From Peptococcia bacterium (GTDB lineage Bacteria; Bacillota; Peptococcia; DRI-13; DTU073): a DNA stretch of 64,000 nucleotides. The position numbers and the translations under genes were made by a program. Location: positions 66,361-130,360 of the forward strand of contig JBMNJJ010000009.1 of the NCBI GenBank assembly GCA_050951605.1, in the 5' to 3' direction. Shown here piece by piece: positions 3,481 through 51,383 of this stretch (its first letter is position 1; every line of letters starts with the position of its first letter). A model generated the notes under the pieces. The model made no database searches. It saw nothing but the letters and a program-made list of their open reading frames with translations, and was not told the origin of the DNA.

Positions 3481-3526
3481 AAACCTTTATGTAGACACAT
3501 TCTTTAAAAGTGTTGCATAAAGGTTT
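3481..3526 (+). terminator. Rho-independent terminator after gdh
   Basis: aaacctttatg ... cataaaggttt stem followed by a T-run. Confidence 0.75.
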
Positions 3527-3610
3527 TTTTGTTTACGTTTTTTAAGTGAAATTAGCATAAATTAAAGAGAAGGAGGGTAACCTAATTTTTGAAAAATTTA
3601 TCTAGGAGGC

Positions 3611-3853
3611 ATGATCTTTGTGAGTCTTATACCTTGGAATCCTTTTAAAGATATGGATAACATTGGCAGGGAAATGAGCAGTTTTTTTGAGAATTCCCCC
3701 TTTGCTTTTTTGGGGCGGGCTACTTCACCGCGTGTTGATGTTTATCAGACAGAGACAGATGTAATTGTCAAAGTAGAAATACCCGGCGTCTCGAAAGAAG
3801 ACTTAAATGTCTATATTGATGAAAATTCAATCAGACTTTCCGGGCAAACCATA
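3611..3853 (+). pseudogene. Truncated small heat-shock protein (Hsp20/alpha-crystallin), 5' part only
   Basis: SLIPWNPFKDMD...VDVYQTETDVIVKVEIPGVSKEDLNVYIDENSIRLSGQT is a typical Hsp20 N-terminus and first half of the ACD. Family-like sequence stops near 3850, and the rest of ORF 3611..3997 is out-of-frame histidine kinase sequence. Confidence 0.75.
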
Positions 3854-5995: not shown

Positions 5996-6054
5996 GTTCT
6001 ACCTCCTGTACTTTTCTTGTTTTGGTATGTTAAGTATAATAGAGTGAATTCAAC

Positions 6055-6080
6055 AAGTCGGTAGCTGGGGTTACCAAGGG
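6055..6080 (-). promoter_or_regulatory. Conserved box 2: GGTAGC-N4-GTTACC (candidate Crp/Fnr-family site) with TATACT -10
   Basis: aagtcgGTAGCtgggGTTACcaaggg. The centre at 6067.5 lies 32 bp from the minus-strand TATACT (6033..6038). About 50 nt of flanking sequence is also similar to 4921..4970. Confidence 0.55.
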
Positions 6081-6141
6081 AAAAGACTTTTGGCAGAATA
6101 AGTAAATATAATAATAAATTTTGGGGAAAGGAAGTTATTTC

Positions 6142-6838
6142 ATGGCTCAACAGTGGCTAAAAACTCTAGAGAAATGTCCTCTTTTTCAAAAAATAACTGT
6201 GGAAGAATTATCTTGCGTTTTAGATTGCCTTCAACCTAAAATAAAAAGTTATAAAAAAAGAGACATTTGTATAACTCTAGAAGGGAAGGAGTTTTCCGGA
6301 GTAGGTGTAGTTTTAAGCGGAGAAGTTGCCGTTACTAAGGAGAACGCCGAAGGTAATCGGGTGATGATGACTAAATTAGGCGCCGGTGGGCTGTTTGGGG
6401 AAATTGCTGGCTTTTTCCGGAAAGCGTATTTGGCCGGCTACGGTAGTTACGCTAGGCTCTTGTCAGGTAATGTTTATCCCGATTAATAAGATTGTTGATA
6501 GTTGTACCAACCGTTGTCCTAGTCATAGGCAATTGATTCTCAATCTGTTGCAGATTGTTTCTAATAGGGCTTTGCTGTTGAATCGAAAAGTGGACTATTT
6601 AACAATTAAGAGTATGCGCGGGAAAATTAGTACTTTTTTATTAGAAAAATATAAAAAAGCCGGGCAAAAGAAATTTAAATTATCTTTAACCCGGCAAGAG
6701 TTAGCTGATTTTTTGAATGTATCGCGTCCCTCTCTTTCGCGGGAGATGTGTCGGATGCGCGATGAAGGGATAATTGAATTTAAGCGAGAATTAATAGAAA
6801 TAAAAGACCTTGCAGTTTTAAAAAGAGCGACAGATTAA
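6142..6838 (+). pseudogene. Crp/Fnr family transcriptional regulator, interrupted by a +1 frameshift
   Basis: N-terminal cNMP-binding-like domain (ORF 6121..6486) and C-terminal HTH (TRQELADFLNVSRPSLSREMCRMRDEGII, ORF 6386..6838). Deleting one T from the T5 run at 6412..6416 joins ...GLFGEIAGFSGKRIWPATVV... Confidence 0.8.
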
Positions 6839-28066: not shown

Positions 28067-28326
28067 TACCCTGCCCCCTTGTGTAATATATTTGATTTTA
28101 TGAATTTATTATATAGGTCAAAAGAAGCCCTTAACAAGGGAAATCATGTGGAAAAATCATTTTCTACCGAGTGTTGGATGTCCGGGTAAACAGAAGGAGC
28201 TTGGCTGAAAAAGCGAAAGCGGGTGGCAGATATTGTTTGTGTGATCTACAAAGGGAAAAAGTTTTAGTAAGGTTTTTATAAGTAGAAAAAGGATTTCAAC
28301 ATAAACCTGTCAATATTAATTAAAGT

Positions 28327-28342
28327 TGGCATATAAATTGCA
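28327..28342 (+). promoter_or_regulatory. Sigma-54 (-24/-12) promoter
   Basis: TGGCATataaaTTGCA, with GG (28328-9) and GC (28340-1) exactly 12 nt apart; 63 nt upstream of the PHP gene start. Confidence 0.75.
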
Positions 28343-28404
28343 ACTATACTTTTGGCGGAAAGGGATAAGAAAATGGAAGCAGATTAATGGAGGTAAGATA
28401 AAAC

Positions 28405-31770: not shown

Positions 31771-32076
31771 ATGGTTAGAATAGTAGTTGCTTGTGGTGGT
31801 GGTATTTTTACAACAACAATTGTTTCAGATCAGGTTAAAGAAATATTAAGAAAAGCAGGGATTCAACATACAGTAACTCCGGCAAAGTTAACAGAAATAG
31901 CTGGTATATCTGATGCTGATTTAATCGTTGTTACAGGTAAGTTTGGAACGAAAACTAAAAACGTGGCTAATATTCCGATTATTGTTGGTATGTCTTTGCT
32001 CACAGGTGTTGGTAAAGAAAAGTTTGCGGAAGAACTTGTACAAAAGGCAAAAGAAATTGAGGAGGCTAAAAAATAA
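31771..32076 (+). CDS. PTS EIIB component, galactitol (Gat) family
   Basis: 101 aa; MVRIVVACGGGIFTTT with an N-terminal active-site Cys. Confidence 0.8.
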   Translation: MVRIVVACGGGIFTTTIVSDQVKEILRKAGIQHTVTPAKLTEIAGISDADLIVVTGKFGTKTKNVANIPIIVGMSLLTGVGKEKFAEELVQKAKEIEEAKK

Positions 32077-33523
32077 TGGCAACATTAAAAATGGTCATTG
32101 ACCTTTTTGGTCCGACAATCTTTGTACCGGTAGTTGTTTTTATTTTAAGTTTATGTATGAGAGTTGAACCGAATAAAGCTTTCCGTGGCGCTTTATATAT
32201 GGGTATTGGTTTGACGGCTTTTAATATTATTCTTGGTGGTTTAATGGGATCCTTAGGTCCTATCGTCACCGAGATGGTTCAGAATACCGGGGTTAATCTG
32301 CCTTGTATTGACGTAGGTTGGCCGGCAGCATCAATTATTTGTTATGCTAACCAGATCGGTTTGTTCTTTATTCCTTTCGGTCTTGTTTTTGACTTGGTGC
32401 TTTTTGCTACGAAATGGACGGATACCTTCCATCCTACAGATATTTGGAATTACTATCACTTCGTTTTTTGGGCAGCTATTGTTCAGTTGGTGACAGGCAG
32501 TTTCTGGATGGGCGTACTTTGTGGGATGTTATTGAATCTTATTCTGTTACTGTTGGCTGACTGGATTGCTCCGGCGATGGAATCTTATTACGGTTATCAG
32601 GGTGTAGTTTCTACTTGTTACTGCTCTATTAACAGTGTACCTTTTACTATTTTAATCAAATGGATTTTGAAAAAGTTGAAATTAGATCGGATTACGTTGA
32701 ATCCCGAACAATTGAGAGAAAAATTTGGTTTCTGGGGTGAACCTGTCACGATAGGTCTTTTAATCGGTTTAGCCGTATCGCTGATTGCTAAATGGCAGTT
32801 CCTCGGTGAACTGGAAAGCTGGGCAACCGTCTTAAAGACCGCAATTGTTACAGGTGCGGTTATGGCTATTTATCCTTCTGTTTCCGGTCTTTTTGTGAAA
32901 GGACTTATTCCGATTACACAGACTTTAAATGCACGAATGAGAAGCGGGGAAATGACCAGAAAGAATATGTATATAGCTATTGACCCTGCTGTTTTCTTTG
33001 GTGAAGAAGCGACAATTGCTACAGGTCTGGTTTTAATTCCGATTATGTTGGCTTTTGCGATTCTTTTGCCCAGTAATATTGTTTTACCACTGGCAGACTT
33101 GCCGGCGATACCTTTCTGCTGTGATCGGTATAGTTACAGTTATGCAGGGTAATGTTTTTGGTTCGTTGATTACAGGAGCTTTATGGATAGGTTTAGGTTT
33201 TATGGCTAACTCTGATATTGCGGTTGTTTTTACCGAAGCGGCGAAGAACGTTAACGCTATTCCTGAATCTGCTGGTCAAGCTTTAGTTACTTGTTTTCTT
33301 GTCGGTAATAATATCTTTGGGTTGGTTGGTTTACAAAGCCTTTGCTGCTTCTGAAGGGATAAGAGTCTTTACAATTGGTCTTGCTTTTGCTTGTTATCTC
33401 GTTGTGTATGTTCTTCTTCCAAAAATACCGCAAGCTTGGCAGTTAGCTGCGGGAGCAACGGAAGAATATTTTGAAGAAAAAGAAGCTCTTTGGAAAGAGA
33501 TGGCAGGAAAAGCGAGCAGCTAG
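32076..33523 (+). pseudogene. PTS EIIC, galactitol (GatC) family, broken by two +1 frameshifts
   Basis: Three overlapping ORFs (32076..33152, 33055..33354, 33299..33523) form one polytopic EIIC. The junctions are at ~33113..33118 (T-run) and the T4 run at 33294..33297. Confidence 0.75.
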
Positions 33524-33713
33524 AAAGGCTTAATTATAATTAAGATTACAAGATGGTAAGAATGCGTAAGAGAGTGAGGATTGCTTATTAAAACAGGGAT
33601 GACCGGGGTTACCTTCTTTAGTAAATTGACTGGCAATCCCGGTTCCCTTTCCCTTAAGGAAATAATTAAGATAAAAAGTTTATTAAAAAACATTAAAAAA
33701 GGAGTAGAAAATC

Positions 33714-44885: not shown

Positions 44886-45989
44886 ATGAGTAGGCTTAAG
44901 CTTATGCTTGTGGATAGAGATATTGAATATGTCAACTGTTTGCTTAATTATTTAATGTCTGAGCAGGCAGAGAAGTTTTGGGTTAACTCTTTTACAGAAG
45001 AGTCTGCCTTAGATAAATTCTTGGCGGAAGAAAAAACAGTTGACCTTGTTCTAACGAGTAGTGAATTTTATGAAATGCTAATTTCTAAAGTTCAGGGGCT
45101 AATTATTCTTTTAGATGAGGATAAAGAAACTTTTAAGGGAAACAAATGTAGAATGGTCGAAAAGTATCAATATGGTGACCGGTTGACAACAGAAATTATA
45201 AAAATATATGCAGAAGAAGTCTCCGAGGTTTCTATAAGTTGTTCGCGTAACCGTATTGGACAAAAAACAAAAATAATTGGCATTTATTCTCCGATAGGTG
45301 GTGTAGGTACGACGACAGTAGCTGTAGGGGCTAGTATTCAATCGGCTTGGGAGGGAAAGAACGTTTTTTATTTAAATTTAGAGAACACTTCTTCTATACC
45401 TCTTTATTTTACAGGTCAGCAGGGAAAAAACTTTGCCCATGTTCTATATTTTTTAAAGGAAAAAAGGGAAAATTTGGCTTGGCAAATAGAGAGTGCTAAA
45501 TGTGTAGACCCTACCTATAAAATTCATTATTTTCAGTCTCCAGATAGCATTTTTGACTTTAATGAAGACCTTAGTGAGGAATTATCTCTTTTATTAAGAG
45601 AATTAAAGTTTACTAAACAATATGAGCGAATTTTTGTTGACCTTTCTTCAGAAATAAACAAAAATAATTTAGCTGTTTTACGGGCTTGTGATGACCTTAT
45701 ATTGGTAGCTCAAGCAAACATGACTTCTTTAGTAAAAATAAAATGTTTGTGTAAAGAATTGCGTTTACTTTCAGAGGAAGAAGACATTGTTGAGAGATTC
45801 AATTTAGTACTAAATAAAGATGTGCCGGGTGCGGTAAGAGAGGTAGAGGAAATAAGTATTAATCAAAAAGGAGTTGTTGCTCGAATTCCTTGGGTGGAGA
45901 ATTTAACTTCTTTGCAGGGTAGTGTTTATAGATTGGATTTTAATTCAAGTTTTGGCCAGGCAATTTATCAATTATTGTTGAGTTTTTAA
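44886..45989 (+). CDS. TadZ/CpaE-like pilus-assembly ATPase homolog with pseudo-receiver N-domain
   Basis: N-terminal REC-like fold (LMLVDRD...VDLVLTSS) lacking the acceptor Asp, plus a ParA/MinD-like domain whose P-loop SPIGGVGTTT lacks the signature Lys. Confidence 0.7.
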   Translation: MSRLKLMLVDRDIEYVNCLLNYLMSEQAEKFWVNSFTEESALDKFLAEEKTVDLVLTSSEFYEMLISKVQGLIILLDEDKETFKGNKCRMVEKYQYGDRLTTEIIKIYAEEVSEVSISCSRNRIGQKTKIIGIYSPIGGVGTTTVAVGASIQSAWEGKNVFYLNLENTSSIPLYFTGQQGKNFAHVLYFLKEKRENLAWQIESAKCVDPTYKIHYFQSPDSIFDFNEDLSEELSLLLRELKFTKQYERIFVDLSSEINKNNLAVLRACDDLILVAQANMTSLVKIKCLCKELRLLSEEEDIVERFNLVLNKDVPGAVREVEEISINQKGVVARIPWVENLTSLQGSVYRLDFNSSFGQAIYQLLLSF

Positions 45990-46013: not shown

Positions 46014-47252
46014 GTGGGATTTAAAGTGGATGCTAATTTATTACAAGAGATAAAAGCGATTATTAATAAAAATATTGATTTAAGAAAAGACTTTTCGGAT
46101 GAGGAAATAGAGGAGGTTATCACGCAAGCTGTTTTTGCCAAGGCGCAGGAAACATATCTTAGCATTTCCGAGAAGCAATTTTTGATTAAGTATATTTTTA
46201 ATGCAATGCGGAGGCTAGATATAATTCAGCCTCTGCTTGATGACCCTATGGTCACAGAGATTATGGTTAATGGTCCTGACGATATTTTTATTGAACGTCA
46301 GGGGAGGATTAGTAAGTTGGAATTAGCTTTTACGAGTAGAGAGAAATTGGAAGATGTAATTCAATCAATTGTTTCCAAAGTTAACCGAACGGTAAATGAA
46401 GCTTCACCGATTGTTGATGCTCGCCTTGAAGATGGTTCAAGGGTTAGTGTAGTGTTACCACCGATTGCTTTAAATGGACCAATTTTAACGATTAGAAAAT
46501 TTCCGGAAAAGCCGCTGACGATGGAACAACTTGTTGCTTATGGCACACTTACGGAGGAAGCGGCAAAAGTTTTAGCACAGATGGTTAAAGCTAAATATAA
46601 TCTTTTTATTTGTGGAGGTACCGGTTCCGGTAAAACTACTTTTTTGAACGCGCTTTCCAATTTTATTCCTGAAGATGAAAGGATTGTAACAATTGAGGAT
46701 TCGGCGGAATTACAGATAGTTAGTGTAAAAAACATTGTAAAGATGGAAACCAGGAATGCTAATACTGAGGGGAAGGGTGAAATAACGATTCGTGATTTGA
46801 TAAGGACTTCTTTGCGGATGCGCCCTGATCGGATTATTGTGGGCGAGGTTAGGGGGGGAGAAGCTTTAGATATGTTACAGGCAATGAATACCGGTCATGA
46901 CGGTTCTTTGTCTACAGGACATGCTAATTCGTCTAAAGATATGTTAAGTAGATTAGAAACGATGGTTTTAACGGCATCTTCTTTTCCTTTGGAGGCGATT
47001 AGACAGCAGATTGCTTCTGCACTTGATGTGATTATTCATTTAGGTAGATTAAGGGATAAGTCGCGAAGAGTTTTGGAAATAAGCGAAGTGAAAGGATATG
47101 AAGCTGGTGAAATAAAGTTAAATCCTTTATTTGTTTTTCAGGAAGAGGGGGAAATGTTTGGAGAAAAAGTTGAGGGAGTTTTAAAAAGAACAAAAAATCC
47201 TTTAATTCATACGCTGAAGTTTAAAATGTCCGGTATTGCGGTGGAAGGATGA
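46014..47252 (+). CDS. CpaF/TadA family type II/IV secretion ATPase
   Basis: Walker A GGTGSGKTT, Walker B/Asp box RIIVGEVRGGEA, and His box GHDGSLSTGHANS. Confidence 0.9.
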   Translation: MGFKVDANLLQEIKAIINKNIDLRKDFSDEEIEEVITQAVFAKAQETYLSISEKQFLIKYIFNAMRRLDIIQPLLDDPMVTEIMVNGPDDIFIERQGRISKLELAFTSREKLEDVIQSIVSKVNRTVNEASPIVDARLEDGSRVSVVLPPIALNGPILTIRKFPEKPLTMEQLVAYGTLTEEAAKVLAQMVKAKYNLFICGGTGSGKTTFLNALSNFIPEDERIVTIEDSAELQIVSVKNIVKMETRNANTEGKGEITIRDLIRTSLRMRPDRIIVGEVRGGEALDMLQAMNTGHDGSLSTGHANSSKDMLSRLETMVLTASSFPLEAIRQQIASALDVIIHLGRLRDKSRRVLEISEVKGYEAGEIKLNPLFVFQEEGEMFGEKVEGVLKRTKNPLIHTLKFKMSGIAVEG

Positions 47253-48166
47253 GGTGGCAAAGGATGACTTTTGTTTTATTGGTTGTAGTGGCGAGTTCTT
47301 TTTCACTAGGTTTATATTTGCTTATAGAGAAAGGAAGAAAAGAGGAAAAAGAGGGAGCAGAAGTGAGCAAGTTTACTGTTCCGAATGACAGTGTTTTAGC
47401 ACTACAAAGTAGTAGTAAAAACTTAATTGATTATGACGTTTATACAATGAGTAAAAGAGAATGGCTTTTTAATTTTTGTTTAGCCGCAAGTTTTTTATTA
47501 TTTGTTGCTTATATTTTTTATAGAAGTATTTTACTTGCAGTTCTAGTCATTCCCTTAGCGTTTTTTTATCCTCGTCTGAAGGCTAAAGAGATTATTGCCA
47601 AAAGAAAAAAGGAATTAAGTTTACAATTTAAAGAAGCTTTATATGCTCTTTCGTCTTCTTTAATGGTGGGGCGATCAGTGGAGTCGGCTTTCAAGGAATC
47701 TTTAAAAGACCTTTCTTTACTTTATCCTGACCCACAAATGTATATTATGCAAGAATTTACTTATATTACACGGCGTTTGACTATGAATGAAACAATAGAG
47801 GAAGCTTTGGCTGATTTTGCTCAGCGAGCACATTTAGAAGACTTGGATAGTTTTGTCGATGTTTTTGTAATTAGTAAAAGAACAGGTGGCAACATTGTAG
47901 AGGTTATCAGAAATACCTCTACAATTATTGGGGATAAACTGCAAATTAAACAAGAGATTGATACACTTTTAGCACAAAGAAAATTTGAGCAAAAAATATT
48001 GAATATGATGCCGCTGGGAATGATTTTACTTCTTACTTGGACGACGGGTGATTATATGGAACCGGTGTTTACAACATTAGAAGGGCGTTTAATTATGACG
48101 GTCTCCGTCTTATTGTTAGGTTTGGCTTATTATCTCTCGAAGAAGATTATGTCTATCGAGGTGTAG
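47249..48166 (+). CDS. TadB-like type II secretion system F-domain membrane protein
   Basis: 305 aa; N- and C-terminal TM helices flank a cytoplasmic T2SSF-like domain; 4-nt overlap with the tadA-like gene. Confidence 0.75.
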   Translation: MRWQRMTFVLLVVVASSFSLGLYLLIEKGRKEEKEGAEVSKFTVPNDSVLALQSSSKNLIDYDVYTMSKREWLFNFCLAASFLLFVAYIFYRSILLAVLVIPLAFFYPRLKAKEIIAKRKKELSLQFKEALYALSSSLMVGRSVESAFKESLKDLSLLYPDPQMYIMQEFTYITRRLTMNETIEEALADFAQRAHLEDLDSFVDVFVISKRTGGNIVEVIRNTSTIIGDKLQIKQEIDTLLAQRKFEQKILNMMPLGMILLLTWTTGDYMEPVFTTLEGRLIMTVSVLLLGLAYYLSKKIMSIEV

Positions 48167-48168
48167 AA

Positions 48169-49038
48169 ATGCTTAGTATTCTTTTTTTGTTAGTAGTGTT
48201 TTTGCTTAGTTTTTTATATTTTCAGTCTAAAAGCAAATATCAGGATTTTTTGTTACCACTTCAACACGAGGAATATCCTTTACGGAAAAGCTTTTTACCT
48301 ATGGGGCATTTTCTTTTGCAAACTATAAATTATGCCTACAAAACGCCGTATGATTGGAAATTATATAACAAATTAGCTGTTCTATATGGTTATAAGCAGG
48401 CTCGGTATTATCTTCAAGTTTATTGGGCAAATAAATTAGGTTATCTTCTTTTAGGTTTACTGATTTTATCTTTTTTCCTGGCAGTAATGGGAGAGCTAGA
48501 TTTAATTATGGGTGTCTTTTGTCTAGTAGTACTTTTTGCTGTTTTTTTTGCTCCTGACTATGAAATAAAAAAGAAAATAGCAAAGAGAAATTTATTAATG
48601 CGCTTAGATTTTCCTGATTTTTTAAATAAACTTACGTTACTGCTTAATGCTGGAATGACGTTCATTAAAGCTTGGGAAAGGATCGTACTTAATAATCAGA
48701 AAAGGACACCTTTTTATGAAGAGGTAGAAACTGTTATACAGGATATACAGCGAGGTAAATCTGAAACTCAAGCCTTGGAGGACTTTGCTAGAAGGTGCCG
48801 AGTCCCGGAAATAACGAGGTTTATAGCGGTGGTACTACAGAATATGAAAAAAGGTAGCGCAGAATTAGTCCCTGTATTAAGGTTACAGGCAAATGAATGT
48901 TGGGAAATGAGGAAAAATGCGGCGAAGCGATTAGGTGAAGAAGCTTCCACTAAGTTGTTGTTACCGATGATGTTAATGTTTATAGCTATACTTTTAATTG
49001 CTGCTGCTCCGGCGATATTAGCTTTAAAGGGCTTGTAA
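48169..49038 (+). CDS. TadC-like type II secretion system F-domain membrane protein
   Basis: 289 aa with the same architecture; follows the TadB-like gene. Confidence 0.75.
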   Translation: MLSILFLLVVFLLSFLYFQSKSKYQDFLLPLQHEEYPLRKSFLPMGHFLLQTINYAYKTPYDWKLYNKLAVLYGYKQARYYLQVYWANKLGYLLLGLLILSFFLAVMGELDLIMGVFCLVVLFAVFFAPDYEIKKKIAKRNLLMRLDFPDFLNKLTLLLNAGMTFIKAWERIVLNNQKRTPFYEEVETVIQDIQRGKSETQALEDFARRCRVPEITRFIAVVLQNMKKGSAELVPVLRLQANECWEMRKNAAKRLGEEASTKLLLPMMLMFIAILLIAAAPAILALKGL

Positions 49039-49080
49039 ATAAAATAAATATTTTGAGATTAAGTGGGAGGAGGTGTAGAG

Positions 49081-49293
49081 ATGCGTAAATTATTAAAGAG
49101 ATTATGGGTTGAGGAAAGTGGAATGGGAACTGTGGAAATAGTGATTATTGTTGCCATATTAGTGGGTGTAGCTCTTTTGTTTAGAAGTCAAATCACTAAT
49201 TTTGTTCGGGCAGCTACAGATAAGGTTTTTGATACGGACATAATTGATGAATCAATAAATGTAGGTGAACCTACTACATCTAATACACCTTAG
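49081..49293 (+). CDS. Flp-family type IVb pilin
   Basis: MRKLLKRLWVEESG/MGTVEIVIIVAILVGVALLF fits a G/xxxxE(Y/I) Flp-type cleavage motif followed by a hydrophobic helix. ATG 49081 sits behind GGGAGGAGG. Confidence 0.75.
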   Translation: MRKLLKRLWVEESGMGTVEIVIIVAILVGVALLFRSQITNFVRAATDKVFDTDIIDESINVGEPTTSNTP

Positions 49294-49299
49294 AAAAGT

Positions 49300-49465
49300 T
49301 TTAACCAAGGTACTGCAGGAGGGTATCCGTAGCTACAATCAGAACGTCCTAAAGCCCGGTTCGGAGTAATGCCGAGAGTTAGTAGGTTACGAGGACGATT
49401 AAGCAGGAAAATCTAATCGTGAGATTAGCAGCACGTGACTTTAGTCATGTGAGGTTCACTTTTTA
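49300..49465 (+). ncRNA. Candidate structured RNA / cis-regulatory element between the pilin gene and the tadG-like gene
   Basis: 197-nt non-coding gap that is clearly more GC-rich than its surroundings. Helices: cgtcct(49345-50)/aggacg(49392-97); tcgg/ccga hairpin; ctaatc-GTGA-gattag (GNRA loop); cacgtgac/gtcatgtg; then a T5 run. Confidence 0.4.
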
Positions 49466-49490
49466 AAAATGAGAAAGAGAAGATGGAGGA

Positions 49491-51383
49491 ATGAAGATTT
49501 TACACAATAACCGAGGTGCCATTTCTGTTTTTTTAATTATAATTTTTCTTGCGTTGTTGATGTTAGCGGGGTTAATTGTTGATATTTGTCGAATAATGGT
49601 TGCAGAAAGAAAAGTACAAAATGCCCTAGATACTGCAGTGCGGTCTGTTTTGGCAGAATATGATGAGGAATTAGTGGGGCAATTCGGTTTATATGGTGTA
49701 GCTTCTGAAGTTAAAGAAGAGAAGTTACAAAGGTATTTTCGCGTTAATTTACTGGAGCGACATCAAAGGTTTAATTTCATTAATTACAAAATAAACAAAG
49801 TAGAAATAAGTAGTTCTGTTCAAAAAAGCATGTTAAATGATGCTCTTTTTAAGGAGCAAATATGTCAATATATGAAATATAAAGGTCCTCTTTTAATTTC
49901 AAAAGATGTTGTTGATATTTTTTCAAAAGGTTCTCTAGCTAAAAAAGCTGATTTATTAAATTTAGGTCAAGAGGCTTCATATGATTTTAAAAGAATTGAG
50001 CAGAGTAAAAAAATATTAAATGAGGAAATGAAGAAAGTAACAGCTTGGGCAAAAGGTAGAGCCATTGAAAAAATAGTAACGATAGACAATATTAAAAGTG
50101 GTGTAGATGAATTAAACAAAATAGCACAAAGATTGCAAGAAAAAACAGGGTCTGCCAATACTAAATTTGTGGAGATAAAGGAAGAAGTTAATCAACTTTT
50201 GTTAGCTGAAAAAGAGCAGGGTTTAGAAAATGTGCAGGGATTTGAAAATGAGGAAGACTTAGAAAAATTAAAAGAAAAATTAAGCCATTTGCAAGGTGAC
50301 CTAAATTTTAATCAAAGGCTTTGGGAGCAAATCGCTTCTCTGGAAAAAGAAATGGCTAATTTAGATGGAAACGATATCGCTGGCAAAGCAACTTTAGATC
50401 AGCAAAGAAGGTACCTTTATAACCAATTACGTTCTTTAGATTCATTAGAACTCTTGTCTGATTCTGTAGCACAGGTTCCTCTTAACCCTAAAGAGATAAA
50501 GACTAAAAATAATCTGGTCCAAACATTAGAAGAACTTACGGGACGGAAAATTGCTGAAGATAATCCTGTTACTTTATTAATCAAGCCGGAGTATTTTCGT
50601 AAAGCTAATCAAAAAAGACTTCAAGAAAAAGCTAATACTTTAATGACGTTAGAACTTGGTCATGACCTGAAAAAAATATCTAAGCAGAATGACTTTGCGG
50701 AAAATGTAGGTGCAAACATTTTTAGCTATCTTTGTGAACTAAACCAACGAATTCAGGAAGCTGGTCAAAGTGGTAGAGATAAAACTTATCTTACGGAGTA
50801 TATCATGGACAAGTATACTTTTATTACTTCTCCGGTGAGTCGAGGTCATTATTTTGAGCATGGTGAAGTAGAATACATACTTTGTGGAAATAAACAGGAA
50901 TCTTTTAATATTACACAAGTTTTTTTGCAGATTTGGAGTATGCGTTGGGCGATAAATGCTATAGATCATTTTGCCCTTAATCCTGTGCCTTCTTTCACAG
51001 TTAGATTAGGGAAAGCTTTAGTAGGAGGATTTATTTGTGCCACCAAAGATATGCTTGATATGTATGGTGGAAAGGACATTCCTGTTTGTGCAAGTTTAGG
51101 GAAATTACCAGTCTGTTTGTCTTATTCCGACCATTTAAGAATATTATTGTTGATGCAAAATGAAAGTACGCAGTTAGAGAGGATGAGGCAATTGATGCAA
51201 ATAAATATAAGGCAGGTTCAGCCTGATTTTGAATTGAGAAATTATGTCACTATACTTACGGGAAAAGCAGAGGTAACAGTGAATTTATGGTTCGCTCCCC
51301 TTTTACAGTTAGACAAATTCGGTTTTAAACAGATTCAGGGTAATAAGTATCACCTGATAAAAACGTCTATACAGGGTTATTAA
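49491..51383 (+). CDS. TadG-like large pilus-associated protein
   Basis: The N-terminal NRGAISVFLIIIFLALLMLAGLIVDICR is typical of Tad/TadG N-terminal domains; the middle region is a long coiled coil. Confidence 0.6.
   Translation: MKILHNNRGAISVFLIIIFLALLMLAGLIVDICRIMVAERKVQNALDTAVRSVLAEYDEELVGQFGLYGVASEVKEEKLQRYFRVNLLERHQRFNFINYKINKVEISSSVQKSMLNDALFKEQICQYMKYKGPLLISKDVVDIFSKGSLAKKADLLNLGQEASYDFKRIEQSKKILNEEMKKVTAWAKGRAIEKIVTIDNIKSGVDELNKIAQRLQEKTGSANTKFVEIKEEVNQLLLAEKEQGLENVQGFENEEDLEKLKEKLSHLQGDLNFNQRLWEQIASLEKEMANLDGNDIAGKATLDQQRRYLYNQLRSLDSLELLSDSVAQVPLNPKEIKTKNNLVQTLEELTGRKIAEDNPVTLLIKPEYFRKANQKRLQEKANTLMTLELGHDLKKISKQNDFAENVGANIFSYLCELNQRIQEAGQSGRDKTYLTEYIMDKYTFITSPVSRGHYFEHGEVEYILCGNKQESFNITQVFLQIWSMRWAINAIDHFALNPVPSFTVRLGKALVGGFICATKDMLDMYGGKDIPVCASLGKLPVCLSYSDHLRILLLMQNESTQLERMRQLMQINIRQVQPDFELRNYVTILTGKAEVTVNLWFAPLLQLDKFGFKQIQGNKYHLIKTSIQGY

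What the first reader, a model, noticed from the sequence alone, without database searches (positions are those of the whole stretch)
49294..49490. GC-rich, highly structured ~170-nt element between the Flp pilin gene and the tadG-like gene: candidate novel RNA
The 197-nt gap has no plausible ORF. It is visibly more GC-rich than the flanking AT-rich DNA, which is a classic sign of structured RNA in low-GC genomes.

Several stems can be drawn:
- a long-range pair cgtcct (49345-50) / aggacg (49392-97) enclosing a tcgg-N7-ccga hairpin
- ctaatc-GTGA-gattag, which has a GNRA tetraloop (49413-28)
- an 8-bp cacgtgac/gtcatgtg hairpin (49432-51), followed by gtga-ggt-tcac and TTTTT

Its position right after the highly expressed pilin gene suggests three possibilities. 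It could be a conditional terminator or processing site that sets pilin-to-machinery stoichiometry. It could be a ligand- or protein-responsive element; second-messenger control of pili is a known theme. It could also be an independent sRNA. I could not match it to any RNA family I know.
Basis: seen in the sequence. Interest (0 to 1): 0.7.

Follow-up and report, generated by a model that had tools for sequence, protein, structure and literature searches.

The report
Transposon guide-RNA fossil behind pilin gene
The GC-rich, hairpin-rich spacer after the Flp pilin gene is a leftover right end of an IS200/IS605 transposon, the part that encodes the scaffold of the TnpB guide RNA (omega RNA); it is not a new pilus-regulating RNA, so it is an ordinary mobile-element relic in a conspicuous place.

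Summary

It is not a Tad-specific or novel RNA. None of about 130 related Tad loci has it. Window 49376-49459 is homologous to the sequence just 3' of tnpB in IS200/IS605 elements: 84% identity to a C. tetani plasmid IS, E=9e-17. The 19-nt core motif occurs in 103 viral-contig stretches, and 73 of the 93 unique sequences compared (mostly from these) have TnpB directly upstream. Homology stops at the transposon right-end boundary (…GGTTCAC, 49459).

A covariance model built from 65 such right ends hits only 49342-49459 in the window (41.5 bits, E~1e-9). The GNRA hairpin (49413-28) and the 8-bp hairpin (49432-51) are conserved, covarying omega-RNA stems.

The window copy has no tnpB, no tnpA and no left end. 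Stems P1 and P2 are eroded. I read it as a solo right-end / orphan omega-RNA relic, co-transcribed with the operon. Any role in stabilising or attenuating pilin mRNA is unproven. Interest is low to moderate.

The parts
49081..49293 (+). flp pilin gene. It is complete: its C-terminal tail EPTTSNTP* is homologous to EPTTPNTK* in relative L002.
   Evidence: Pfam Flp1_like E=3e-16; comparison with L002.
49294..49341 (+). 5' segment of uncertain origin, containing an interrupted 10-bp hairpin (49310-49336). It could be old spacer or strongly diverged IS sequence. A resemblance to the last tnpB codons (…NQG…stop) is not statistically supported.
   Evidence: MFE fold; nhmmer profile that includes tnpB 3' ends gives no match here; no left-end match.
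49342..49459 (+). IS200/IS605-family right end, i.e. a TnpB omega-RNA scaffold remnant (full extent of the covariance-model match).
   Evidence: CM R1 scores 41.5 bits, E=1.3e-9, and this is the only significant hit in 64 kb. Robust sequence homology covers 49376-49459.
49352..49375 (+). Eroded P1/linker/P2-5' region. The canonical P1 hairpin is replaced by a 3-bp CCG-GTT-CGG hairpin (49356-49364). The 5' arm of P2 is reduced to CC (49372-73).
   Evidence: CM alignment flags these pairs as non-canonical; alignment A4.
49376..49394 (+). Invariant core motif GAGTTAGTAGGTTACGAGG. Together with C49396 it includes stem P2b: G49378-C49396, T49379-A49395, T49380·G49394.
   Evidence: 103 exact-motif stretches in viral contigs. 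Of the 93 unique sequences compared (mostly from these stretches), 73 have TnpB upstream. P2b covaries U-A:40 / A-U:24-25.
49413..49428 (+). P3 hairpin CTAATC-GTGA-GATTAG (GNRA loop), specific to the C. tetani-like subfamily.
   Evidence: Compensatory variants CTAATA/TATTAG, CTAAGA/TCTTAG, CTAGTA/TACTAG and CTAAAA/TTTTAG.
49432..49451 (+). P4, the subterminal right-end palindrome CACGTGAC-TTTA-GTCATGTG. This is the TnpA-type recognition hairpin and the last omega-RNA stem.
   Evidence: 100% of cells paired across A4, with compensatory changes. It matches in 65 plasmid and 7 phage records.
49455..49459 (+). Transposon right-end terminus TTCAC. Homology to all IS copies stops here.
   Evidence: Alignment A2 and 30 right-end copies with divergent flanks.
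49460..49479 (+). Host flank that would form the roughly 16-20-nt 'guide' of the orphan omega RNA (TTTTTAAAAATGAGAAAGAG). It includes the T5 run 49460-64. Homology to the relatives' spacer resumes at about 49465.
   Evidence: Comparison with L002, L037 and L126; guide definition from Karvelis 2021.
49465..49490 (+). Conserved translation-initiation region of the tadG-like gene (…GAAAGAGAAGATGGAGGA).
   Evidence: This is the only part of the spacer shared with related Tad loci.
49491..51383 (+). DUF5702 / TadG-like gene.
   Evidence: Pfam DUF5702 and Tad domains; homologues.

Best explanation
Window 49342-49459 (securely 49376-49459) is a solo right end of an IS200/IS605-family insertion sequence of the tnpA+tnpB 'IS605' type. 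This is the segment that, in intact elements, lies just 3' of tnpB and encodes the 3' scaffold of the TnpB guide RNA (omega RNA / reRNA).

Inferred history: an IS inserted between the flp stop codon and the ribosome-binding region of the tadG-like gene, in the same orientation as the operon. It later lost its left end, tnpA and tnpB by deletion.

What remains: stems P2b, P3 and P4 and the TTCAC terminus. P1 and P2 are eroded, so the copy is probably no longer a competent guide-RNA scaffold, and it cannot transpose.

Consequence: the relic lies inside the operon on the sense strand, so it is presumably carried on the flp–tadG transcript (inferred). Any effect on flp mRNA stability or read-through would be an incidental or secondarily exploited by-product, not the reason the sequence exists (inferred).
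For: - blastn against plasmids: window 49376-49461 matches a C. tetani plasmid at 83.7% identity, E=9e-17. Weaker matches occur in C. botulinum, E. faecium and Paenibacillus plasmids and in phages.
- In the annotated records the match lies 50-100 nt after the stop of 'IS200/IS605 family element RNA-guided endonuclease TnpB', with tnpA upstream.
- The 19-nt core motif occurs in 103 viral-contig stretches. Of the 93 unique sequences compared (mostly from these stretches), 73 have a TnpB ORF (49-72% identical to the C. tetani TnpB) ending just upstream.
- Homology ends at …GAGGTTCAC in all copies and the flanks then diverge, which marks the right-end boundary.
- Family structure: P1, P2 and P2b covary. 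96.7% of cells pair, against 27-52% when partners are slid.
- A CM built without the window scores 49342-49459 at 41.5 bits, E=1.3e-9, and nothing else in the window is significant. That score is higher than bona fide tnpB-adjacent copies of sister subfamilies, which score 30-32 bits.
- P3 and P4 of the window copy fit the subfamily's covariation.
- No tnpA or tnpB in the window. No left end.
- Absent from all related Tad loci.
- Similar truncated derivatives exist elsewhere: L168 and L254 keep only the last 25-44 TnpB residues plus the right end.
- Literature: the reRNA derives from the tnpB 3' end plus the right end, with a 16-nt guide from the flank (PMC8612924). Rfam covers only a small subset of TnpB omega RNAs (10.1101/2023.03.14.532601).
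Against: - Only the 3' 84-118 nt are demonstrably IS-derived. The 5' 48-82 nt have no significant homologue.
- The insertion-then-deletion history is inferred. No empty-site or full-length allele of this locus was found.
- The closest relative (81% protein identity) carries a deletion across the whole region, so it says nothing about timing.
- The perfectly preserved last 30 nt, and the presence of some hairpin at this position in several relatives, leave room for retained function.
- Only 64 kb of the genome could be searched for a cognate TnpB.
Confidence: 0.87

Rival explanations
1. Exapted cis element. The relic's stable hairpins (P3 and P4, followed by U5) now act on the operon mRNA. They would serve as a 3' stabiliser of a processed or terminated flp transcript, or as a leaky attenuator, raising pilin relative to machinery.
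For: - It sits directly after the major pilin gene, on the sense strand.
- Four other lineages carry unrelated strong hairpins at the same junction: L002/L035 (-42 kcal/mol spacer), L036 (-23), and L007/L038/L128 and L129, which have long hairpins followed by U-runs, i.e. classic terminators.
- This suggests recurrent selection for a hairpin at this position.
Against: - The U5 run starts 8 nt after P4. The terminator scan finds nothing here.
- The MFE z-score is -1.0.
- L001, L037, L045 and L126 have essentially no spacer, so the feature is dispensable.
- There are no transcript data.
Confidence: 0.2
2. Functional orphan omega RNA. The scaffold, transcribed with the operon, is bound in trans by a TnpB (or a nuclease-dead TnpB derivative) encoded elsewhere in the genome. 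It would use the flank TTTTTAAAAATGAGAAAG as its guide, and TnpB binding or processing might also cut the polycistronic mRNA.
For: - The 3' modules and terminus are intact. The last 30 nt are identical to active-looking copies L152 and L155.
- Protein-less IS605 derivatives (PATEs) are proposed to supply omega RNAs in trans.
- TnpB processes its own mRNA into omega RNA (PMC10278001).
- Two Logan assemblies break 29 and 30 nt before the right end. With k=31 graphs this hints at other copies of this terminus in those samples.
Against: - P1 is lost and P2 is reduced to 2 bp.
- No tnpB lies within 64 kb.
- The guide would match only its own flank, which is preceded by the transposon end rather than the TTGAA-like motif that precedes left ends in this family.
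- There is no benefit to the host.
Confidence: 0.08
3. A genuinely novel Tad-associated regulatory RNA (a riboswitch, protein-binding leader or sRNA).
For: GC-rich and ORF-free; no Rfam match.
Against: - Absent from every related Tad locus.
- The structured part is homologous to transposon right ends.
- The unexplained 5' part has no homologues and no exceptional folding.
Confidence: 0.03
4. A complete miniature non-autonomous transposon (a PATE/MITE with both left and right ends) that could still be mobilised by TnpA.
For: It is small and protein-less and carries an authentic right end. The 5' hairpin 49310-49336 superficially recalls the outer stem of left ends.
Against: - A profile of 22 family left ends finds nothing in the window.
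- The only GACTTTAGTC-type hairpin nearby is the right-end hairpin itself.
Confidence: 0.02

Closest known systems
TnpB omega RNA / reRNA of IS200/IS605 elements (e.g. ISDra2; Karvelis 2021 PMC8612924; Meers 2023)
   Same: - Encoded at the transposon right end.
- Multi-stem scaffold ending in the subterminal right-end hairpin and a short conserved tail.
- Homology stops at the element boundary and the next ~16 nt of flank would be the guide.
- Same strand as the upstream gene.
   Different: - No tnpB (the scaffold normally overlaps or follows its 3' end), no tnpA and no left end.
- P1 and P2 are eroded.
- This sequence subfamily (Clostridia plasmid/phage IS605 elements with core GAGTTAGTAGGTTACGAGG) is not captured by any Rfam model.
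PATEs (palindrome-associated transposable elements), the protein-less IS200/IS605 derivatives
   Same: A short, ORF-less derivative that retains an omega-RNA-coding right end.
   Different: PATEs keep both ends and remain mobilisable. Here the left end is absent, so this is a dead-end relic. PATE-like copies with a left-end-type hairpin do seem to exist in the same family (e.g. L183, L230).
Intercistronic hairpins/terminators after major pilin genes (the tad 'termination cascade' of Aggregatibacter and papA-type 3' stem-loops; cited from my own knowledge, papers not held)
   Same: Position immediately 3' of the pilin gene, on the sense strand, with stable stem-loops. Relatives of this locus do carry terminator-like hairpins there.
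   Different: The origin is a transposon end. The geometry is not that of a canonical hairpin plus U-tract. No transcript evidence.
Rfam RF02841 Ref70 (Enterococcus sRNA 70)
   Same: It weakly matches the tnpB-adjacent right-end region of the E. faecium plasmid copy (31 bits, against a gathering threshold of 115). It is therefore probably a sister omega RNA.
   Different: No match to the window element at E<=10.

Membership tests
IS200/IS605 right end / TnpB omega-RNA scaffold | Sequence homology to the segment immediately 3' of tnpB in intact elements | tested here: met
   83.7% over 86 nt to the C. tetani IS, E=9e-17. tnpB ends about 50 nt upstream of the match. Of the 93 unique sequences compared, mostly motif-bearing viral-contig stretches, 73 have TnpB upstream. 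nhmmer E=1.3e-15.
IS200/IS605 right end / TnpB omega-RNA scaffold | Homology terminates at a fixed transposon boundary, with unrelated flanks beyond it | tested here: met
   All copies end …(G/A)(G/T)TTCA(C/A). The window ends at 49459, after which the native spacer resumes.
IS200/IS605 right end / TnpB omega-RNA scaffold | Subterminal imperfect palindrome (right-end hairpin) | tested here: met
   49432-49451. All 8 pairs are kept in all 10 aligned sequences, with compensatory changes.
IS200/IS605 right end / TnpB omega-RNA scaffold | Fit to the family's covarying secondary structure (covariance model) | tested here: inconclusive
   41.5 bits, E=1.3e-9, and P2b, P3 and P4 are intact. However, the P1 and P2 pairs are non-canonical or deleted in the window copy.
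IS200/IS605 right end / TnpB omega-RNA scaffold | Adjacent tnpB gene whose 3' end overlaps or precedes the scaffold | tested here: not met
   tblastn with two TnpBs and one TnpA finds nothing in the 64-kb window. Hence 'orphan/relic', not an intact member.
IS200/IS605 right end / TnpB omega-RNA scaffold | RNA is expressed, processed and bound by TnpB | not testable with these tools
   No transcriptome or protein data are available.
PATE (miniature IS200/IS605 element) | Left end with a hairpin resembling the right-end hairpin, preceded by the target motif (about TTGAA in this family) | tested here: not met
   A left-end profile from 22 elements gives no significant hit. No second GACTTTAGTC-type hairpin near the element.
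Any Rfam 15 family (riboswitches including c-di-GMP-I/II, ribozymes, sRNAs, IS605-orfB motifs) | Covariance-model score at or near the gathering threshold | tested here: not met
   No hit at gathering threshold in the whole window. The only hit at E<=10 in 49000-49700 is noise: mir-883, 15.9 bits.
Rho-independent terminator | GC-rich hairpin followed within 0-2 nt by a U-tract | tested here: not met
   The scan reports none in the spacer. U5 begins 8 nt after the 8-bp hairpin. The only adjacent stem is 4 bp, GTGA/TCAC.
Conserved Tad-locus regulatory RNA | Presence and covariation at the flp–tadG junction in homologous loci | tested here: not met
   About 130 loci were searched by blastn, nhmmer and CM. 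Only same-species copies match.

The most novel reading that the evidence does not exclude
The transposon relic has been co-opted. Because it is embedded in the presumably abundant flp transcript, its omega-RNA scaffold would be recognised in trans by a TnpB-family protein encoded elsewhere, either a nuclease or a domesticated, nuclease-dead relative. Binding or 5' processing at the scaffold would split the flp message from the downstream machinery genes, or the scaffold alone would act as a protective 3' structure. Either way a selfish guide-RNA module would become the device that sets the pilin-to-machinery ratio.
Probability: 0.06. Interest if true: 0.65.

Novelty: new member of a known kind. 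Interest (0 to 1): 0.22.

Why it matters
The main value is cautionary and for annotation.

- GC-rich, hairpin-rich, Rfam-negative spacers in low-GC Firmicutes can be orphaned IS200/IS605 right ends. Rfam covers only a sliver of TnpB omega-RNA diversity, so such relics will keep appearing as 'novel structured RNAs' in GC-based screens.
- The 65-sequence alignment and model made here define a widespread Clostridia plasmid/phage omega-RNA subfamily: core GAGTTAGTAGGTTACGAGG, terminus GTTCAC, left-flank motif about TTGAA. It could be used to mask such hits.
- Biologically, it records a transposon insertion within a pilus operon that left the genes intact.
- If the relic does influence flp mRNA fate, it would be a small example of exaptation of a guide-RNA scaffold.

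Tried and rejected
- Rfam at gathering threshold (whole window) and at E<=10 (49000-49700): nothing real.
- Thermodynamic significance: z = -1.0 on both strands.
- Repeats of the element within the window: none.
- Conservation in related Tad loci, with 114 loci from genome and metagenome scans and 16 more by exact-protein look-up. Only the ribosome-binding stretch is shared. Spacers in relatives are unrelated hairpins or are absent.
- Degraded coding remnant: tblastx and six-frame translation are negative.
- tnpB-tail remnant in 49294-49341 ('…NQGTAGGYP*' against '…NILNQGLKEL…*'): tempting by eye, but not supported by the profile search.
- An alternative reading of a 20-nt insertion splitting P2: less parsimonious than the collinear alignment.
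- Closer relatives of the 5' half in viral contigs: two exact-pattern scans gave nothing or chance hits.
- Left end / PATE hypothesis: rejected.
- Pseudoknot between the P1-P2 linker (GAAUU) and the 3' tail (AGUUC): compatible (92% paired) but with no double covariation, so left open.
- Canonical terminator: rejected.
- tRNA/tmRNA: none in the window.

Full report
**Context**

The window comes from an uncultured Peptococcia bacterium; the tadG-like protein is 100% identical to a MAG protein of that name. It carries a plus-strand Tad/Flp pilus operon:
- tadZ-like: 44886-45989
- tadA: 46014-47252
- tadB: 47249-48166
- tadC: 48169-49038
- flp: 49081-49293
- the 197-nt spacer
- a DUF5702/TadG-like gene: 49491-51383
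- TadE-like genes downstream

**Checking the observation**

The spacer has stops in all six frames and no translated similarity to anything fetched. Its GC content reaches 0.49 against about 0.35 around it. With a crude gene call, it contains the most GC-rich 100 nt (0.51) of the 31 intergenic regions of at least 60 nt in the window.

The sequence is identical in three independent assemblies.

Global folding is unremarkable: the MFE is -45.5 kcal/mol, z = -1.0, and 29 of 200 shuffles fold as well. The minus strand gives the same z. Rfam 15 gives nothing at gathering thresholds in the whole window. In a permissive scan of 49000-49700 it gives only a noise hit. No terminator-like site is called in the spacer.

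**Is it conserved in Tad loci?**

I aligned 25 homologues of the downstream protein (31-81% identity) and fetched 34 genome loci and 80 metagenome loci. I added 16 more loci by exact-protein look-ups.

blastn and nhmmer with the 197 nt find only the last ~20 nt, the ribosome-binding stretch GAAAGAGAAGAT. Reading the junctions directly gave the following:
- The 81%-identity lineage (L001, L120-125) has a deletion that fuses a shortened flp to the tadG start.
- L002/L035 (68%) have an unrelated 110-nt spacer with two strong palindromes.
- L036, L007/L038/L128 and L129 (56-57%) have unrelated long hairpins. Those of L007/L038/L128 and L129 are followed by U-runs; the L036 hairpin is not.
- L037, L045 and L126 have 14-18-nt spacers.

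So the element is lineage-specific.

**What it is**

A sensitive blastn of 49294-49470 against plasmids gave an unexpected hit. Window 49376-49461 matches a C. tetani plasmid at 83.7% identity (E=9e-17) and C. botulinum plasmids at 73%. The last ~30 nt match 65 plasmid and 7 phage records from Clostridium, Enterococcus, Paenibacillus and Clostridioides.

In the annotated records the match lies just downstream of tnpB, annotated as 'IS200/IS605 family element RNA-guided endonuclease TnpB'. The tnpA gene lies upstream of tnpB. In C. botulinum the corresponding ORF is a tnpA–tnpB fusion or pseudogene.

Aligning the window with three such regions shows that similarity ends at …GAGGTTCAC (window 49459), after which every sequence differs. 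This is the signature of a transposon right-end (RE) boundary.

An exact-pattern scan of viral contigs for the 19-nt core GAGWTAGTAGGTTACGARG (window 49376-49394) returned 103 stretches. Of the 93 unique sequences compared (mostly from these stretches), 73 have a TnpB ORF (49-72% identical to the C. tetani protein) ending about 50-60 nt upstream. A second scan for the terminal hairpin gave 27 more stretches.

According to Karvelis et al. 2021, the TnpB guide RNA (reRNA/omega RNA) corresponds to the 3' end of tnpB plus the RE, followed by ~16 nt of flanking DNA that serves as the guide (PMC8612924). Meers et al. [quoted passage not shown] That explains the Rfam silence here and on the intact elements.

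**Structure and model**

I aligned 65 unique RE regions, excluding the window (A3). RNAalifold recovers three stems:
- A P1 hairpin, with pair types G-C:33 / C-G:32 at its closing pair.
- P2 (CCUGU/ACAGG), with C-G:42 / U-A:22 and U-A:59 / C-G:6.
- An inner stem P2b, with U-A:40 / A-U:25.

On this structure 96.7% of cells are paired, against 27-52% when partners are slid. The covariation score is 0.34 against 0.19 in shuffles.

The covariance model R1 built from A3 was run without filters over the window. It gives one significant hit, 49342-49459 on the plus strand, at 41.5 bits and E=1.3e-9. The next best hit is 16.5 bits, E=0.06. The same model finds nothing in the related Tad loci except the same-species copies. 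It scores true tnpB-adjacent copies of sister subfamilies at 30-32 bits.

I then aligned the window with its nine closest relatives and imposed a manual structure (A4).
- CTAATC/GATTAG in the window against CTAATA/TATTAG, CTAAGA/TCTTAG, CTAGTA/TACTAG and CTAAAA/TTTTAG.
- A-U to G-C at the P4 column pair 109/116 of alignment A4.

Overall, 94% of cells pair against 28-44% when slid, and 10 pairs show double changes.

It uses 49394-96, which belong to the covarying P2b.

In the window copy, canonical P1 is replaced by a 3-bp hairpin. The 5' arm of P2 is reduced to two bases.

**What is missing**

- tblastn with TnpB and TnpA finds nothing in the 64 kb.
- I defined the family's left ends from multi-copy elements and from hairpin similarity. 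A left end consists of the flank motif ~TTGAA, an outer stem, 'GCAnT', and a hairpin resembling the RE hairpin.
- A profile of 22 left ends finds none in the window. The only nearby GACTTTAGTC-type hairpin is the RE one. The element is therefore not a PATE.
- A profile extended into tnpB 3' ends supports homology only from 49376, with the envelope starting at 49356. The origin of 49294-49341 stays open. A by-eye resemblance to the last tnpB codons is not significant.
- Homology to the spacer of relative L002 resumes about 6 nt after the RE terminus, at AAAAATGAGAAAGAGAAGAT. This independently brackets the foreign segment.

**Most likely mechanism and history**

Shown:
- The 3' two-thirds of the 'novel RNA' is an IS200/IS605 RE / omega-RNA scaffold.
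- It is oriented with the operon.
- It lacks its protein genes and its left end.

Inferred:
- An IS inserted between the flp stop codon and the tadG ribosome-binding region, after divergence from the L002 lineage.
- An internal or leftward deletion then removed the left end, tnpA and tnpB. Comparable truncated derivatives (L168, L254) occur in phage contigs.
- The relic is now carried passively on the operon transcript.
- Loss of P1 and P2 argues that it is decaying as a guide-RNA scaffold.

**Rivals**

- *Cis exaptation as an mRNA stabiliser or attenuator.* Hairpins recur at this junction in relatives, which makes this plausible. But the U-run is 8 nt from the hairpin, several relatives lack any spacer, and there are no transcript data.
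- *Trans use by a TnpB encoded elsewhere.* PATE-borne omega RNAs are proposed to work this way, and TnpB processes its own mRNA (PMC10278001). Two Logan contigs start 29 and 30 nt before the RE end, as expected if that 30-mer is repeated in the sample. However, no tnpB is in reach and the scaffold is damaged.
- *A truly novel Tad riboregulator, or an intact miniature transposon.* Both are effectively excluded.

**Verdict**

The object is a known kind of thing: an orphan TnpB omega-RNA / IS605 right-end relic. It belongs to a Clostridial subfamily that Rfam does not model. Interest is low to moderate. The main value is as a recognisable false-positive class for GC-based ncRNA screens, plus a small chance of exaptation in pilin mRNA handling.

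Noticed in passing
L001 1590-1655; also L120-L125: In the closest relative (81% protein identity) a deletion removes the flp C-terminal tail and the whole spacer. A 68-aa flp ends in …GEEKMGK* and overlaps the tadG start (ATGA). The state is the same in at least 6 independent assemblies.
   Followed up: partly
L002 1178-1287 (= L035); L036; L007/L038/L128/L130; L129: Related Tad loci carry unrelated, very stable hairpins at the same flp–tadG junction. In the L128 group and L129 these are followed by U-runs (classic terminators). L037, L045 and L126 have only 14-18-nt spacers. This suggests recurrent gain and loss of a post-pilin hairpin.
   Followed up: partly
L002 about 1222-1268: The L002 spacer contains nested TTCGAGG/CCTCGAA palindromes (TTTTCGAGGTTCGAATATCGAACCTCGAATTTCGAGACCTCGAAAA). 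They look like a small repeat element of their own.
   Followed up: no
L118 position 1 and L119 position 1 (window 49431 and 49430): Two Logan assemblies of the same species break 29 and 30 nt before the transposon right-end terminus. For k=31 graphs this is what a repeated 30-mer would cause, so it hints at other copies of this right end in those samples.
   Followed up: no
L134 2917-3037 (E. faecium plasmid pEfm12493): Rfam RF02841 'Ref70, Enterococcus sRNA 70' weakly matches (31 bits, against a gathering threshold of 115) the region right after tnpB. That published sRNA is probably a TnpB omega RNA.
   Followed up: no
L183, L229, L230 (viral contigs), around the core motif: Copies with no TnpB ORF have a left-end-type hairpin and only the last few tnpB codons directly upstream of the scaffold. 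They are apparent PATE-like miniature derivatives of the same family. L168 and L254 keep only the last 25-44 TnpB residues.
   Followed up: partly
L206 13151-13270: One family member has a ~60-nt GC-rich hairpin inserted after GAGG in the scaffold. Large insertions inside this omega RNA evidently occur.
   Followed up: no
window 32076-33523: A membrane-protein ORF (32076-33152) continues in two other overlapping frames (33055-33354 and 33299-33523). This is probably a frameshifted gene or an assembly frameshift. It accounts for one of the other 'GC-rich intergenic' stretches (33153-33713).
   Followed up: partly
window 5996-6385 and 28067-28404: Two further divergent-promoter spacers have 100-nt GC maxima of 0.47-0.48, the next highest after the studied spacer. 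No Rfam hit at gathering threshold.
   Followed up: no
L037 about 3500-3790: This relative has an unusually long (~290 nt) tadC–flp spacer containing a GGGGGCCCCCATCCCCACC stretch that is absent from the window.
   Followed up: no
A3 columns 26-30 with 132-136 (window about 49364-49368 with 49453-49457): A possible pseudoknot between the P1-P2 linker (GAAUU) and the 3' tail (AGUUC / GGUUC) of the omega-RNA family. 92% of cells are compatible, but there is no double covariation.
   Followed up: partly
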